Source: a virus (taxonomy: Duplodnaviria; Caudoviricetes). Taken from it: a stretch of 64,000 nt of DNA. The position numbers and the translations under genes were made by a program. The DNA lies in the IMG/VR virus record IMGVR_UViG_3300021603_000005, positions 79,429-143,428 of that record, one strand, 5' to 3'. Positions 15-52,629 of this stretch are shown here, one piece after another. The first letter of the stretch is position 1; each line of letters starts with the position of its first letter. A model generated the notes under the pieces. It did not search any database, was not told the DNA's origin, and saw only the letters and a program-made list of their open reading frames with translations.

Positions 15-731
15 TGTGAGGGTTGACTAGGCTGGGGTATGCCGATCACCGAGGCTATGGCGACATCGTGTCCCGCAATGGTTGTAAATTATTCTGCTAT
101 GGAAGATCATGCAAAAATGCCGGGTGGTATTCCAATTAATGTTGAAAGGTTTTTCTACGAAGCAGTAATAGAAACAGAACAGCGCAGAGCGCTACCTAGC
201 AATAAACATTTTGGCGAACAATTAACCCGCATTATAAAGATGAGGCCAGAGCAAAGGACAGAACTGGCAAGACGAACACATGAGTATATGGTTGAACCAG
301 CGGACGTATTTGGTCAAACAGAAAAACTACCGCGATTTGGATACGATAGAACAGCGGCAATATGGATGAATGTTATTGATTCCATAGGGGTGTTAGATAG
401 GTCTAAGACATGGGATAGAAAGGAACCGAACTACCGGGTTCCAGACCTAAAAGCACCGAATAGGGTGATGAGCAATACCGAGTTTGTGAGGTGGGCTATA
501 ACTAGCATTATGCGTAGGCCGGATCTTGCCACATCGTTCATGGCAAATGAATGGATCAGGTGGTTGAATTGTGGATTTAAGATAGAGGGAAACCAAAGGG
601 TTCCGTGTGATCGAAATACCATAGCGAACATGGCTATACAGATTGTTAACGAATATAACGGTGCCGAAAAAATGAGGGCGGATAGCTTGGTTGCTCGAAA
701 CAATAGCGAAATTGGGTTCACGGTGTTGTAA
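15..731 (+). CDS. GT-B (GT4-like) glycosyltransferase, C-terminal part, interrupted by an in-frame TGA at 24-26
   Basis: CEG*LGWGMPITEAMATSCPAMVVNYSAMED matches the EG(F/W)GxPxxEAMA motif. The ORF track starts at ATG 39. Confidence 0.75.
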
Positions 732-1924
732 TGCGTGTACTGTATATATCTGTCTATAAGGATGGTACCGGTTATAGTCATGCTGCGATAGAAACTATCT
801 TGGCGTGCGAAAGGGCCGGAATCGATGTCGTATGCAGACCAATATCTATGTCCCCGATGAACGGTATTGATGATGCCAAACGAATTCAACACCTAGAATG
901 CAAACCGCTAAACAACGTTGATGTAGTCATACAGCATTCGCTTCCACACACATTCGAGTATAAGAGCGGCGTTAAAAACATAGGGGTATTTAGCTGGGAA
1001 ACAACGCATTTTAGAAATTCAACATGGGCAGAGCATTGCAATCTGATGGATGAGATATGGACATCATCTATTGTTGCAAAGCAGGCTATTATCAATAGCG
1101 GAGTAACAAAGCCTGTGCGAGTTATTCCTATCCCATGTAATGCGAACAAGTACAGTAGCACAACAAATCCAATAGCACTTCCTGGCAAATCGAACCAAAC
1201 CGTATTCTATACGATAGGCGAATATACCAGACGCAAAAATATCGTCGGAGTCATTCGATCATATTTTCATGCCTTTACGCCAGACGACAATGTGGTTCTG
1301 GTAATAAAAACATCCTTCCCTGGAATAAAGGATAACGCAGCACAACAACAGATCTCGCAAATAGTTGACGATATCAAAATGTCAACACATATCTATCAAA
1401 ACCCAAGGGATTATCCACCAATCATAGTTATTACGCGACGAATGTCTGATGAACACATAGGACAACTTCACAAATCCGGTACGTTTTTTGTGTCTCCGTC
1501 TCACGGAGAGGCGTGGTGTATTCCAGCCATGGATGCGCTTGGTTATGGCAATCCTGTTATAGCATCTAATTGGGGTAGTTTCCCAGAGTTGCTAATGGAT
1601 TTTGATAACGCCAAGAAATTCTTCGATCCGGACAGTATGTCATTTGAATATCCAGGAGATGTTCCTGGCGGCTACCTAATCAAAGGACAACTATCCCCAT
1701 GTTTTGCTCCGGACGGTGGATTTAACGACCTGTACACAGGCAAAGAAGAATGGTTCGAGCCAAATCTGTGCCACCTATCTAATATTCTCCGTCGTGCATA
1801 CGACATTCATCAATGCCAACCAGATGTATTTGCCCAAAAAAGAATCAGTGCATCTATGCGAGCAAGGGCATTTGATCATGCTAGTGTTGGCGATAGAATA
1901 AAGTTGGCACTGACACAGGAGTAG
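731..1924 (+). CDS. GT4-family glycosyltransferase
   Basis: N-terminal TGYSHAA, then WET, RRKN and SPSHGEAWCIPAMDALGYGNPVI motifs. Confidence 0.9.
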   Translation: MRVLYISVYKDGTGYSHAAIETILACERAGIDVVCRPISMSPMNGIDDAKRIQHLECKPLNNVDVVIQHSLPHTFEYKSGVKNIGVFSWETTHFRNSTWAEHCNLMDEIWTSSIVAKQAIINSGVTKPVRVIPIPCNANKYSSTTNPIALPGKSNQTVFYTIGEYTRRKNIVGVIRSYFHAFTPDDNVVLVIKTSFPGIKDNAAQQQISQIVDDIKMSTHIYQNPRDYPPIIVITRRMSDEHIGQLHKSGTFFVSPSHGEAWCIPAMDALGYGNPVIASNWGSFPELLMDFDNAKKFFDPDSMSFEYPGDVPGGYLIKGQLSPCFAPDGGFNDLYTGKEEWFEPNLCHLSNILRRAYDIHQCQPDVFAQKRISASMRARAFDHASVGDRIKLALTQE

Positions 1925-1926
1925 AA

Positions 1927-50091: not shown

Positions 50092-50579
50092 AATGATTTC
50101 TCTCTTTTGATTATCATGTCAAATATTATTTTTGAAATTTGTTTACCACATTGCCCAACGAACATAATTGGAACAGAATATTCTGCACCAAGTTGCATAA
50201 TCCAATCGATAACTGCTTTGCCTGGAACATGTGTCCTAACCTGGGATGGAGATAGCTCGAAAGCCTCTCTCGTCAAATCGGTTTCTACCAGAACATAACG
50301 ATATTTGATGTCCTTCATTCTGATAAATTCGTCTAGTATTCTATCCTGATCATTAAGATAATTGTTCCATAGTTCTGAAAGCCCACTTTTTCTTTCTATG
50401 CATAGTAGGTGAGTATAATTTTGAATAGAGTAGTCGCCAGTGTCTAGCTTTTGATCAATTTGTCCTAGGCATAGCGGGGGGCGTTTGCGCGCGTTACTGG
50501 GAGAAAATTCCCATCCATGATTTTCTTTTTCTCTGGTATCGCGAATGACTGTGTACGATGGTATTACTAGTCTTGGCAT
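50070..50579 (-). CDS. ERCC4/XPF-family nuclease
   Basis: DTRE…LDTGDYSI…IERKS…LVE motif. Confidence 0.88.
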   Translation of the reverse strand: MPRLVIPSYTVIRDTREKENHGWEFSPSNARKRPPLCLGQIDQKLDTGDYSIQNYTHLLCIERKSGLSELWNNYLNDQDRILDEFIRMKDIKYRYVLVETDLTREAFELSPSQVRTHVPGKAVIDWIMQLGAEYSVPIMFVGQCGKQISKIIFDMIIKREKSLWLPQQK

Positions 50580-51571
50580 GGAACTTCTACTCCGACTTGA
50601 CGACAATCATGTACCACCATTTCCCGTATCAATTCATGAAACGTGATCTTTGGTTCCCATCCCAACACTCGCTTGGCCTTACTTGCGTCCCCGATCAATA
50701 GTGGAACTTCTGCGGGACGAAGCTGTGTGTCATCAATCGCTACATAATTTATCCAGTCCAAACCTACTGAACCGAACGCTGCTTCCAAAAGCTGTTTGAT
50801 AGACCAAGTTTTACCAGACGCTATTACAAAATCGTCTGGCTTATCTTGCTGAAGCATCAACCACATTGCTTCTACGTAGTCGCGGGCATGCCCCCAGTCT
50901 CTACGAGCAGTTAAATTCCCTAGTTTCAGTTTGTCTATTTGCTTGTTATCTTGTTGTGCGCGAAGCAGTTTTGCGACGTACATGGTTATCTTGCGAGTGA
51001 CAAAATTTTCCCCACGCCTTGGACTGCTGTGATTAAACAATATGCCAGCACTGGCGTGTATGCCATAAGCATCTCTATATAGCTCTGTTAGATAGTGGGC
51101 GGTTGCTTTAGCACAACCATACGGGGACCGTGGTTTTATTTCTGTCGTCTCGGATTGTGGAATCTCAATCACATCCCCAAATAGTTCCGACGTGCTCGCT
51201 TGGTAGTATTTCGTTTTTGGGCTTACTTGTCTAATGGCTTCAAGAATGTTTAATGGCCCAATGGCATCGATATTGAAGGTGGCTATCGGTTCGGAAAAAG
51301 AAGTCCCAACGTGCGATTGAGCCGCTAGATTGTAAACCTCATCTGGCTTAACGCCAGAAATTATTCTGAACATACAAGAGGCATCTACTATGTCACCCTC
51401 AATCAAGTGAAATCTAGGATGATCTAATAAGTGATCGATTCTTTCCTTCGTATTCGTCGACGATCTTCGCATCAAGCCGTAAACATCATATCCCTTACCC
51501 AGTAACAATTCAGCAAGATAGCTAGCATCTTGTCCGGTTGCGCCCGTTATAATAGCAGTCTTGTTCGTCAT
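50567..51571 (-). CDS. gmd: GDP-mannose 4,6-dehydratase
   Basis: ITGATGQDASYLAELLL, NLAAQSHV, YQASTSELFG, SPYGCAK, FVTRKIT, RDWGHARDYV. Confidence 0.97.
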   Translation of the reverse strand: MTNKTAIITGATGQDASYLAELLLGKGYDVYGLMRRSSTNTKERIDHLLDHPRFHLIEGDIVDASCMFRIISGVKPDEVYNLAAQSHVGTSFSEPIATFNIDAIGPLNILEAIRQVSPKTKYYQASTSELFGDVIEIPQSETTEIKPRSPYGCAKATAHYLTELYRDAYGIHASAGILFNHSSPRRGENFVTRKITMYVAKLLRAQQDNKQIDKLKLGNLTARRDWGHARDYVEAMWLMLQQDKPDDFVIASGKTWSIKQLLEAAFGSVGLDWINYVAIDDTQLRPAEVPLLIGDASKAKRVLGWEPKITFHELIREMVVHDCRQVGVEVPCQD

Positions 51572-52629
51572 GATACTTTCCTTTCCAGTAACGACTCAAC
51601 TTTCCAGATATGTTTAGTCGCAGCTTGTAGTCCAATCCTGTTAATCTCGTCTACTATATTTTTCTGACCCAGCACATCAAAGATATCTGCCAGTCGATTA
51701 AAGTAACTATGATGCGTGGCTGTGTGTGTAACAAGCGGCTTGATTATTCCAAATCGAACTTCCGGTCTAGAACCAATAGTCTCAACGAACTGGATGAAGG
51801 TTGTTACATCGCTGACTACTGGTATCATATTTCCGAAATACTTGGCACCCAGCATCGTATTAACAATCGGTAGTCCACCACACATAGCCGATGTGAAAGT
51901 CCGCTCATTTAATACCGCACCCTCTTTGGCCTGATCGATTGTGTGTAAGTCTACACAGATGTTGGATCGACTATAAATACTAGCTGGATTACCAGTAAAC
52001 GGCACTACGCCATTTACACCTATTGTATTCCATGCACCATCTCCGTGGATGACAACGTTCAATCTTCCACTAATCCTCATCAATAACGGAAGTATCCACT
52101 CTCTTAGTATGTTCATGCGATGAGACATATTGGCGATTATAGACACCCCGTATATTGGAGATAGGTCTTGCGGGGTCGATATCAATGAGTCTCCGGCCAT
52201 TGGCAGTGGCATCAATGGAATATCCTGGTCAAACCATCTATGGAAATATTTTCCCCACACATGTGGCTCCACAGATGTATGCACAATCTTGCGATTGATC
52301 ATGCCAGCAATAGCAACGTCGTCGTATGACGCGCACCCGAACCTACTATCGAGACAAAATCCGTCATTGTTAAACGGAAGTGCCGCAATAACAACACATA
52401 TGTTGCGTTTGTTGATTAGATCTATTGGTAGGTTTCGCAAGCCGCATACACATGACACAAAAATGATAGATACATCCAACTGCTCAATAATACTGATTAC
52501 GTCTGCCTTGCAAACTGGTTGATACGAAAAGACCTTCCACCCAACAGCGCGTAGAGCATTAGCATATCCGCGACTAGCGACATTTGTTGTGATATCGTCG
52601 TTTAGTATGAATAGTGCAGAATTATTCAT
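51568..52629 (-). CDS. GT-B glycosyltransferase (CgeB/Glyco_trans_1_2-like)
   Basis: IYSRSNICVDLH…LNERTF…CGG and HSYFNRL motifs. Confidence 0.75.
   Translation of the reverse strand: MNNSALFILNDDITTNVASRGYANALRAVGWKVFSYQPVCKADVISIIEQLDVSIIFVSCVCGLRNLPIDLINKRNICVVIAALPFNNDGFCLDSRFGCASYDDVAIAGMINRKIVHTSVEPHVWGKYFHRWFDQDIPLMPLPMAGDSLISTPQDLSPIYGVSIIANMSHRMNILREWILPLLMRISGRLNVVIHGDGAWNTIGVNGVVPFTGNPASIYSRSNICVDLHTIDQAKEGAVLNERTFTSAMCGGLPIVNTMLGAKYFGNMIPVVSDVTTFIQFVETIGSRPEVRFGIIKPLVTHTATHHSYFNRLADIFDVLGQKNIVDEINRIGLQAATKHIWKVESLLERKVS

What the first reader, a model, noticed from the sequence alone, without database searches (positions are those of the whole stretch)
731..52629. Candidate phage-encoded virion O-glycosylation system that uses Ser-Gly sequons
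Seen: predicted surface proteins are rich in the dipeptide SG. Hand counts give ~53 SG versus ~21 GS in the 1375-aa protein, ~76 SG in the 2556-aa protein, 7-8 in each ~210-aa paralog, ~8 in the tail tube, ~9 in the head-closure protein and 4 in the 156-aa decoration protein. I found none in the 335-aa major capsid and 2 in the 699-aa portal. The SG>GS asymmetry (counted only in the 1375-aa protein) argues against simple composition bias. The window also carries at least six GT genes, two degenerate GT-like genes, two glycan-type methyltransferases and gmd. Established: Ser-Gly is the attachment motif for eukaryotic proteoglycan xylosylation, and some actinophages and giant viruses glycosylate their virions. 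Inference: the phage builds a methylated, 6-deoxyhexose-containing glycan onto xSG sites of fibres, tube and decoration proteins, giving a glycan coat for shielding, adhesion or receptor mimicry.
Basis: partly seen in the sequence, partly recalled or inferred. Interest (0 to 1): 0.88.

Follow-up and report, generated by a model that had tools for sequence, protein, structure and literature searches.

The report
Ser-Gly-rich lectin-module phage fibre proteins
Two giant outer proteins of this uncultured 143-kb phage, and their relatives, carry about 2.5 times more Ser-Gly pairs than chance; this is real, but it looks more like a building habit of a new lectin-like fibre family than a proven sugar-attachment signal.

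Summary
The counts are exact. After composition correction SG is the most over-represented dipeptide in both giant proteins (53 vs 18.6 expected; 76 vs 31.3; z about 9). GS, NG, DG, TG, SS and GG are not enriched. Both Ser codon families are used, so the bias acts on the protein.

The giants are paralogs built of about 270-aa ConA/LamG-like jelly-roll modules plus short SGxIDLFI repeats. 42 distant homologs show the same bias (O/E 2.48), and only 29% of it lies in four conserved columns.

SG sits mostly in loops beside beta-strands, in a hydrophobic context, with preferred spacings of 8 and 14-15 residues. Conserved SG columns swap Ser for R/K/Q/N/G/A more often than for Thr.

The sugar genes are real: five Pfam-supported GTs and gmd in the window, with no export genes found among the proteins scanned. 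Nothing ties them to SG:
- GT-bearing relatives lack the bias.
- A relative whose late operon lacks gmd and the GT keeps it.
- The one co-occurrence is a single clade.

Most likely this is a structural turn signature of a new fibre family. Virion glycosylation at SG stays possible (about 0.2) but unsupported. This scan has flagged the same pattern in at least 26 other genomes.

The parts
15530..19657 (-). P0001, a 1375-aa giant virion protein just downstream of the tape measure gene. It has four ~270-aa ConA/LamG-like modules (aa 4-270, 278-547, 556-824, 838-1098) and a C-terminal run of short SGxIDLFI-type repeats (aa ~1100-1375). SG 53, GS 21.
32901..40571 (-). P0002, a 2556-aa giant virion protein just downstream of the capsid gene and a paralog of P0001. 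Module hits lie at aa 422-624, 1445-1647, 1643-1913, 1920-2182 and 2194-2432. The N-terminal ~50-aa repeats (aa 1-421) are not SG-enriched. SG 76, GS 33.
32531..32890 (-). 119-aa protein, 42% identical to the last 100 residues of P0002.
9135..10428 (-). Two paralogous ~210-aa proteins (9135-9749, 9787-10428; 42% identical). SG 7 and 8, GS 6 and 6, so no asymmetry. Present only in the module-bearing clade.
27953..29002 (-). 349-aa protein, a putative tail tube by position only. SG 8 vs 2.3 expected. Its 10 orthologs pool to O/E 1.22, so the excess is not conserved.
30697..31956 (-). 419-aa virion protein, SG 9 vs 3.5 expected. Its homolog in G019 carries the short repeat motif.
42066..42536 (-). 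156-aa cement or minor capsid protein. SG 4 vs 1.0 expected. 71 orthologs pool to O/E 2.49; positions 39, 57 and 121 carry SG in 53, 61 and 46 of 73 aligned sequences.
41043..42050 (-). Major capsid protein (a source names relatives DUF2184 or Mu GpT-like). No SG and no Ser/Thr-rich C-terminal tail.
19670..25567 (-). Tape measure protein, 1965 aa, SG O/E 0.95. Serves as an internal control.
44646..46745 (-). Portal protein, 699 aa, SG O/E 0.85. Serves as an internal control.
731..4558 (+). Four tandem GT genes at the end of the replication module: GT4 (731-1924, lineage-wide), GT4 (1927-2898), GT2 (2895-3740) and GT-A with a Glyco_transf_7C piece (3737-4558). The last two have no homolog in the five relatives compared.
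4540..8822 (+). Seven further co-directional ORFs with no convincing family. The only hit is a sub-threshold SAP match on 7474-8304. Several occur only in the module-bearing clade.
50567..51571 (-). GDP-mannose 4,6-dehydratase (gmd) in the late operon upstream of the terminase.
51568..52644 (-). 358-aa Glyco_trans_1_2-type GT next to gmd in the late operon. Clear orthologs (E 1e-12 or better) occur only in genomes of the module-bearing clade; the module-less fragment G015 gives one weak match (E 7e-5, 25% identity).

Best explanation
Two separate things lie side by side here.

(1) The SG excess is the sequence signature of a new, clade-restricted family of giant phage fibre or adhesin proteins. 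Each protein strings several ~270-aa ConA/LamG-like jelly-roll (lectin-type) modules together through short beta-strand repeats of the SGxIDLFI type. In this family Ser-Gly is the preferred way to make the tight turn or strand cap that flanks a short beta-strand. Hence its hydrophobic surroundings and its preferred spacings of 8 and 14-15 residues. The modules most likely bind host surface glycans, as such modules do in other phage receptor-binding proteins (inference from fold).

(2) The phage also carries a real glycan-building gene set: GT4, GT2 and GT-A enzymes, gmd, and three nucleotide-sugar enzymes further upstream. Its acceptor is unknown. Virion proteins are a reasonable target, but nothing in the sequence shows that SG serines are the acceptor.

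Shown: the enrichment, its family-wide and directional nature, the fold, the loop placement, and the distribution among relatives. Inferred: the turn role of SG and glycan binding by the modules.
For: - The giants are paralogs built of repeated modules.
- The module model (pLDDT 86) is a 13-strand beta-sandwich. It matches ConA-like lectin modules: PilC 7oa8, clostridial neurotoxin Hc jelly rolls, GH43 AbnA domain 4, Pan3 tailspike 9vyh and the Douge baseplate 8zdo.
- 42 homologs at 25-45% identity share the bias: SG O/E 2.48, GS 1.25, TG 0.89, NG 0.99.
- In the modelled module 9 of 11 SG lie in loops, including one in the low-confidence linker, and several sit within 1-4 residues of a strand end.
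- At 876 family sites, hydrophobic residues are enriched at -3, +2, +3 and +5. Position -1 favours A/P/V/T, charged residues are depleted, and +4 favours P/D.
- The spacing between SG sites peaks at 8 (2.2x) and 14-15 (2.35x) and is depleted at 2-4.
- The four conserved SG columns replace Ser with R, K, Q, N, G or A more often than with Thr.
- The bias follows the protein family, not GT possession. Module-bearing proteins in relatives have O/E 2.28 vs GS 1.19; module-less large proteins have 1.41 vs 1.27. GT-bearing complete relatives G007, G008 and G010 have giants at 0.9-1.3.
- G019 lacks gmd and the GT in the late-operon slot yet has O/E 2.30.
- The phage's non-virion proteins are not depleted in SG (O/E 1.06-1.13). 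A bare two-residue sequon read by a cytoplasmic enzyme would be expected to cause depletion.
Against: - Ordinary turn statistics do not explain why Ser is chosen over Asp or Asn: NG and DG are not enriched.
- The fold alone does not give the bias. Canonical Laminin_G_3 proteins in relatives have O/E 0.9-1.5.
- Only 29% of module SG lies in conserved columns. After masking them O/E is still 2.20, spread over 85 of 268 columns. This looks like selection for SG density as well as for position.
- Unrelated virion proteins of this phage and of G005 also carry a modest excess (1.47-1.55 against 1.06-1.11 for the rest of the genome).
- The module family and the late-operon GT 51568 occur in the same clade.
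- I had no model coordinates, so turn types and solvent exposure were not measured.
Confidence: 0.5

Rival explanations
1. In the module-bearing clade, serines of SG at exposed turns of fibre, cement and other outer virion proteins are O-glycosylated in the cytoplasm by phage GTs. The best candidate is the late-operon GT 51568, using the product of the adjacent gmd. The result would be a glycan coat.
For: - The excess is strong, directional, Ser-specific, acts on the protein and is limited to the virion block.
- It persists outside conserved columns.
- There is a modest excess in unrelated virion proteins of the two module-clade genomes read in full.
- SG is mostly in loops.
- The GT and gmd sit at the head of the late structural operon.
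- Clear orthologs of GT 51568 are found only in the module-bearing clade.
- No flippase, polymerase or lipid-carrier transferase appeared among the window proteins scanned, and no ThyA-type hydroxymethylase for DNA glycosylation.
- Phage virion glycosylation has precedent in mycobacteriophages, as summarised in PMC12619734.
Against: - The co-occurrence is a single clade, one change on the capsid tree.
- G019 keeps SG-rich fibres without gmd or the GT in that slot.
- GT4 1927 also occurs in the module-less G015.
- The SG context is hydrophobic with fixed spacing.
- Thr is not an accepted substitute.
- The phage's enzymes show no SG depletion.
- No GT matches a known polypeptide GT family over threshold, and there is no GT9/BAHT enzyme.
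- No literature precedent for an SG sequon in bacteria or phages was found.
Confidence: 0.2
2. The GT and nucleotide-sugar genes act on host envelope glycans during infection (LPS, capsule or EPS remodelling through host lipid carriers and exporters), not on the virion. On this reading they have nothing to do with SG.
For: - Four GTs lie at the end of the replication (early or middle) module on the opposite strand from the structural genes.
- The best weak NCBIfam matches are to exopolysaccharide GTs EpsE and EpsD.
- Epimerase/dehydratase-, RmlD-reductase- and WecB-type genes lie together elsewhere in the genome.
- From my own knowledge, cyanomyoviruses carry LPS-type gene clusters.
Against: - No initiating lipid-carrier transferase, flippase or polymerase was seen among the proteins scanned.
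- gmd and one GT sit in the late operon beside the terminase.
Confidence: 0.25
3. The excess is an artefact of repeats or composition. A few motif copies duplicated many times, or local Ser/Gly-rich patches, would inflate the count.
For: - The giants are internally repetitive, and four columns (for example IGSG and WTSG) are conserved.
- The 204/213-aa paralogs are equally rich in GS.
Against: - Masking the conserved columns leaves O/E 2.20.
- GS, SS and GG are not enriched in the giants.
- Modules are only 20-40% identical, and 42 distant homologs keep the bias.
- All six Ser codons, from both codon families, and all four Gly codons are used.
Confidence: 0.05

Closest known systems
ConA-like / LamG jelly-roll lectin modules in adhesins and phage receptor-binding proteins (PilC lectin module 7oa8; Pan3 tailspike 9vyh; Douge baseplate 8zdo; clostridial neurotoxin Hc N-terminal jelly roll)
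   Same: Same fold by Foldseek (E 1e-7 to 1e-5, probability 1.00, TM by query 0.43-0.52). The modules end in the LamG-type DEVVLW..(F)T..EL helix. They sit in large outer virion proteins.
   Different: - No Pfam Laminin_G_3 match.
- Only 43 representatives among 1.8 billion proteins.
- Up to five module hits per protein, joined by SGxIDLFI repeats.
- About 7 SG per module, a bias that canonical Laminin_G_3 proteins of related phages lack.
Virion O-glycosylation of mycobacteriophages by phage-encoded GTs (Freeman et al. 2023, as summarised in PMC12619734)
   Same: A tailed phage with its own GT genes and no export machinery found, so virion proteins are conceivable acceptors.
   Different: There the glycans sit on the C-termini of capsid and tail-tube subunits. 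Here the capsid protein has no SG and no Ser/Thr-rich tail. The proposed sites are dispersed loop serines in fibres, and no chemistry exists.
Autotransporter hyper-heptosylation by TibC/AAH (BAHT family; PMC4358343)
   Same: A cytoplasmic GT-B enzyme that modifies many serines on a repetitive beta-structure.
   Different: The phage has no GT9-type heptosyltransferase. The acceptor here is a jelly-roll module, not a beta-helix. A different sugar nucleotide is implied (a GDP-6-deoxyhexose precursor from gmd).
Eukaryotic proteoglycan xylosylation at Ser-Gly
   Same: The same dipeptide.
   Different: Acidic flanks and clustered SG repeats are expected there (my knowledge). Here D, E, K and R are depleted around SG, and SG pairs 2-4 residues apart are 2-4 times rarer than chance. 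No GT14-type enzyme appeared in the Pfam scans of the window proteins.

Membership tests
ConA-like lectin / LamG jelly-roll superfamily | Two-sheet jelly-roll beta-sandwich fold | tested here: met
   The AF2 model of P0001:278-560 has pLDDT 86.3 and 13 strands. At least 500 PDB matches have E<=0.001, led by ConA-like lectin modules.
Pfam Laminin_G_3 (PF13385) | Match to the family HMM over its cut-off | tested here: not met
   No Pfam hit on either giant at E<=0.01. PF13385 finds nothing in G000, but does find proteins in G010 and G012.
Mycobacteriophage-type virion glycosylation | Phage-encoded glycosyltransferases | tested here: met
   Five Pfam-supported GTs in the window plus gmd.
Mycobacteriophage-type virion glycosylation | Glycans on C-terminal tails of capsid and tail-tube subunits | tested here: not met
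   The last 35 residues of the capsid protein hold one Ser/Thr and no tail. The putative tube ends without a low-complexity tail. The feature is as summarised in PMC12619734.
Mycobacteriophage-type virion glycosylation | Glycan detected on virion proteins | not testable with these tools
   The phage is uncultured and known only as a metagenome record. No relative was found among 50,697 phage records.
BAHT (TibC/AAH) autotransporter heptosyltransferase system | GT9-type heptosyltransferase enzyme | tested here: not met
   PF01075 has no match in the complete genome.
Proteoglycan-type Ser-Gly xylosylation | Acidic residues flanking SG, and clustered SG repeats | tested here: not met
   D, E, K and R are depleted at -4 to +5. 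Gaps of 2-4 residues occur at 0.24-0.59 of expectation.
Glycosylated-DNA phages (hydroxymethyl-pyrimidine route) | ThyA-family dNMP hydroxymethylase | tested here: not met
   PF00303 is absent and an ordinary ThyX is present. A T4 gp1-like dNMP kinase domain is present, so this is not a full exclusion.

The most novel reading that the evidence does not exclude
In one clade of uncultured 140-180-kb aquatic phages, serines of Ser-Gly turns on lectin-module fibres and other outer virion proteins are O-glycosylated in the cytoplasm. The enzyme would be a clade-specific late GT (51568-52644), fed by the adjacent gmd and extended by the GT4/GT2 cluster. That would be a fold-embedded, turn-directed sequon and a virus-made glycan coat on a tailed phage outside the actinophages.
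Probability: 0.2. Interest if true: 0.8.

Novelty: new variant of a known kind. Interest (0 to 1): 0.45.

Why it matters
If the structural reading is right, this defines a new, rare family of multi-lectin phage fibres. Only 43 representatives were found among 1.8 billion proteins. Its unusually clean sequence rule, Ser-Gly beside beta-strands, could be used to recognise outer virion proteins in uncultured phages. It also poses a small structural question: why Ser rather than Asp or Asn.

If the glycosylation reading is right, it would be the first sequon-like signal for virion glycosylation in tailed phages outside the actinophages. It would also explain the conserved GT genes of a widespread aquatic phage lineage.

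The same pattern has now been flagged in at least 26 genomes of this scan, so one experiment would settle many findings at once.

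Tried and rejected
Searches that found nothing useful:
- Pfam and PHROGs on the fibre and tail proteins gave no hits.
- tblastn of the capsid protein and of the module against 50,697 phage records gave nothing. 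The portal gave only about 20% identity to Bacillus and Clostridium phages, so there is no cultured relative.
- PDB sequence searches with three GTs and with the cement protein, alone or as a profile, gave only weak, non-significant hits: chondroitin synthase 3 at 0.014, GalT1 at 0.007, MshA at 0.002, gp48 minor capsid at 0.03.
- ESM Atlas look-ups of the 311-aa and 276-aa conserved proteins returned unnamed viral clusters only.
- The word-index homolog search for GT 51568 found only its near-identical copy.
- Freeman et al. 2023 (PMC10527164) is not held.
- No paper links Ser-Gly to a bacterial O-glycosylation sequon.
- The moraphage paper (PMC12619734) describes a different lineage.

Explanations rejected:
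- A DNA-level motif, because six Ser and four Gly codons are used.
- A generic xG turn or Ser/Gly-patch effect, because NG, DG, TG, GS, SS and GG are flat.
- A few conserved motif columns, because masked O/E is 2.20.
- The ConA fold as such.
- Fibre or giant-protein status as such, because relatives' giants are at about 1.0.

Tests that could not discriminate:
- GT co-occurrence: all ten complete relatives have GT1 genes, and the module-bearing set is one clade.

Not attempted: a GT-substrate complex prediction, which the tool's own guidance calls rarely worthwhile.

Full report
**What the window is.** The window is the last 64 kb of a complete 143,428-bp IMG/VR phage genome with direct terminal repeats.

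On the minus strand it holds a late operon, in this order:
- a sigma-70 region-2-like protein
- a 311-aa protein
- a GT (51568-52644)
- gmd (50567-51571)
- an ERCC4 nuclease
- a terminase with a LAGLIDADG intein
- the portal
- a cement protein
- the capsid protein
- an HTH protein
- the 2556-aa giant (P0002)
- connector-region genes
- a 1965-aa tape measure protein
- the 1375-aa giant (P0001)
- further fibre-region genes

On the plus strand, directly after the replication genes (DnaB, primase, split Pol III alpha, SSB), lie four tandem GT genes and seven unassigned ORFs. No cultured relative exists in 50,697 phage records. The capsid protein does have thousands of metagenomic relatives, many on 140-240-kb contigs.

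**The observation.** All hand counts are exact. P0001 has 53 SG against 18.6 expected and P0002 has 76 against 31.3. Both stand about 9 SD above shuffles. SG is the most over-represented of all 400 dipeptides in each protein. GS, NG, DG, TG, GG and SS sit at or below expectation.

Pooled O/E is 2.58 for the giants, 1.49 for the 20 other virion-block proteins and 1.13 for the other 178 ORFs of the genome. No protein outside the virion block exceeds z 3.

SG is written with all six Ser codons, from both codon families, and all four Gly codons. The bias therefore acts on the protein, not on a DNA word.

**What the giants are.** They are paralogs. P0001 is four ~270-aa modules, 37-41% identical to one another, followed by a run of ~38-aa repeats whose core is SGxIDLFIxG. 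P0002 carries five module hits, an unrelated N-terminal repeat region and a long middle region.

An AlphaFold model of one module built on 47 module copies (pLDDT 86) is a 13-strand beta-sandwich with a terminal helix. Foldseek places it among ConA-like lectin modules:
- PilC minor pilin
- the jelly-roll half of clostridial neurotoxin binding domains
- a GH43 carbohydrate-binding domain
- the Pan3 tailspike
- the Douge baseplate

It is not a Pfam Laminin_G_3 member. An exhaustive HMMER search of 1.84 billion representatives found only 43 relatives.

**The bias belongs to the family.** The 42 homologs outside this phage pool to SG O/E 2.48, GS 1.25, TG 0.89 and NG 0.99.

In 61 full-length module copies there are 7.0 SG per module. 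Four columns carry SG in 36-67% of copies and account for 29% of all SG. With these columns masked, O/E is still 2.20 and SG occurs in 85 of 268 columns. So a few frozen motifs do not explain it.

The fold does not explain it either. Canonical Laminin_G_3 proteins in related phages have O/E 0.9-1.5. Giant-fibre status does not explain it: more than twenty proteins of 900-5292 aa in related genomes G007, G008, G010 and G012 sit near 1.0.

**Where SG sits.**
- In the modelled module 9 of 11 SG are in loops, including one in the low-confidence linker, and several lie within 1-4 residues of a strand end.
- Over 876 family sites the surroundings are hydrophobic at -3, +2, +3 and +5. Position -1 favours A/P/V/T, charged residues are depleted throughout, and +4 favours Pro or Asp.
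- Distances between neighbouring SG peak at 8 and at 14-15 residues (2.2-2.4 times chance). Distances of 2-4 residues are depleted.
- In the four conserved columns Ser is replaced by R, K, Q, N, G or A more often than by Thr.

Together this is the profile of a turn or strand cap that brackets short beta-strands. What it leaves unexplained is why Ser is so strongly preferred over Asp and Asn.

**Other virion proteins.**
- The cement protein's excess is conserved: 71 orthologs pool to O/E 2.49. Most of it sits at three conserved positions.
- The excess in the putative tube is not conserved (orthologs 1.22).
- Capsid orthologs pool to 1.29 and portal orthologs to 0.83.
- With module proteins removed, the virion blocks of G000 and G005 still show 1.47 and 1.55, against 1.06-1.11 for the rest of each genome. 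Module-less genomes range from 0.85 to 1.44.

**The sugar genes.** Pfam supports GT4 (731-1924), GT4 (1927-2898), GT2 (2895-3740), a GT-A with a Glyco_transf_7C piece (3737-4558), a Glyco_trans_1_2-type GT (51568-52644) and gmd, which is over the NCBIfam equivalog cut-off.

A further lineage-wide ~570-aa GT4 is interrupted by inteins in this phage, just upstream of the window. Three nucleotide-sugar genes (epimerase/dehydratase, RmlD-type reductase, WecB-type 2-epimerase) lie at genome 50,584-53,403.

No export, polymerase or lipid-carrier function appeared among the proteins scanned. There is no ThyA-type hydroxymethylase, and ThyX is present. Virion proteins are therefore a reasonable acceptor, but no GT reaches any specific family, protein-glycosylating or otherwise.

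**Does SG travel with the GTs?**
- All ten complete relatives have GT1-family genes, so there is no GT-free control.
- The module family is present in 9 of 19 genomes. Clear orthologs of the late-operon GT 51568 (E 1e-12 or better) occur only in that set, plus eight further fragments whose capsid protein is at least 66% identical to the window's. The module-less fragment G015 gives one weak match (E 7e-5).
- On the capsid tree the module-bearing genomes form one side of a single 100/100 branch. This is therefore one evolutionary event, not a correlation.
- GT4 1927 also occurs in the module-less G015. GT2 2895 and GT-A 3737 have no homolog in the five relatives compared.
- In G019 (locus L023) the late operon runs from sigma to the 311-aa gene to ERCC4 to the terminase, with neither gmd nor a GT. 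Its four large post-capsid proteins nevertheless have SG 48, GS 26, O/E 2.30, and carry the short repeat.
- Across 26 loci where that slot is fully visible, 19 have large post-capsid proteins. Among these, gmd-negative loci are not poorer in SG than gmd-positive ones (1.70 vs 1.37).
- G019 is only 26% complete, so GTs elsewhere in it cannot be excluded.

**A specificity argument.** A bare dipeptide is too short to direct a cytoplasmic enzyme. If SG alone were read, the phage's own enzymes should avoid it. They do not (O/E 1.06-1.13). Any real sequon would have to include the structural context.

**Verdict.** The most likely explanation (about 0.5) is a structural Ser-Gly turn habit of a new lectin-module fibre family, lying next to a real glycan gene set whose acceptor is unknown. 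The glycosylation-sequon reading remains open at about 0.2. It is neither supported nor excluded by sequence alone, and needs the mass-spectrometry experiment described under next steps.

This scan has raised the same idea for at least 26 other genomes. Those notes are unchecked and were not used as evidence. One gave the lead to the TibC/AAH paper (PMC4358343), whose defining enzyme family I tested for and did not find.

Noticed in passing
window 46783-50091 (-): The large terminase is 1102 aa because it carries a Hint/LAGLIDADG intein (Pfam Terminase_6N + Intein_splicing + LAGLIDADG_3). Relatives have ~680-730-aa terminases.
   Followed up: partly
genome 76767-79454 (ends at window ~26) and window 39-731 (+): An 895-aa ORF made mostly of two Hint/intein modules interrupts a GT4 that is a single ~550-580-aa protein in relatives. 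The next ORF (39-731, 230 aa) is conserved lineage-wide and may be its C-terminal part. Another first-stage note proposes a recoding event here. I did not test it.
   Followed up: no
window 32531-32890 (-) and 32901-33200 (-): A 119-aa protein encoded just downstream of the 2556-aa giant is 42% identical to the giant's last 100 residues. It may be a free copy of its anchoring or terminal domain.
   Followed up: no
L071 17139-20384 (+) (= G010 86571-89816): A 1081-aa post-capsid protein in a distant relative has 98 GS and only 4 SG. This is the mirror-image bias, presumably a Gly-Ser-X repeat protein.
   Followed up: no
genome 50584-53403 (L084 6584-9403, +), outside the window: Three adjacent nucleotide-sugar genes (SDR epimerase/dehydratase, RmlD-type reductase, WecB-type UDP-GlcNAc 2-epimerase). 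From my own knowledge the arrangement recalls 6-deoxy-L-HexNAc pathways. Absent from all five relatives compared.
   Followed up: partly
window 53557-54102 (-): A sigma-70 region-2-like protein heads the late structural operon. It is conserved in close relatives and in G019.
   Followed up: no
window 39310-40571 (-) (P0002 aa 1-421): The N-terminus of the 2556-aa giant is made of ~50-aa repeats (pattern ..G.A.VGT..G..ISFG....F..). They are not SG-enriched (O/E 1.25), unlike the rest of the protein.
   Followed up: no
L023 956-2994 (+): In relative G019 the late-operon slot between the 311-aa gene and ERCC4 is only ~600 bp and holds neither gmd nor a GT. About ten other loci likewise lack a detectable gmd ortholog there, so gmd is a variable insert in this lineage.
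   Followed up: yes
window 56290-63484 (+): An auxiliary gene set after the late operon: RNA ligase, SAM methyltransferase, MazG, IMPDH/GMP reductase family, ThyX, trypsin-like peptidase and DeoC-type aldolase.
   Followed up: no
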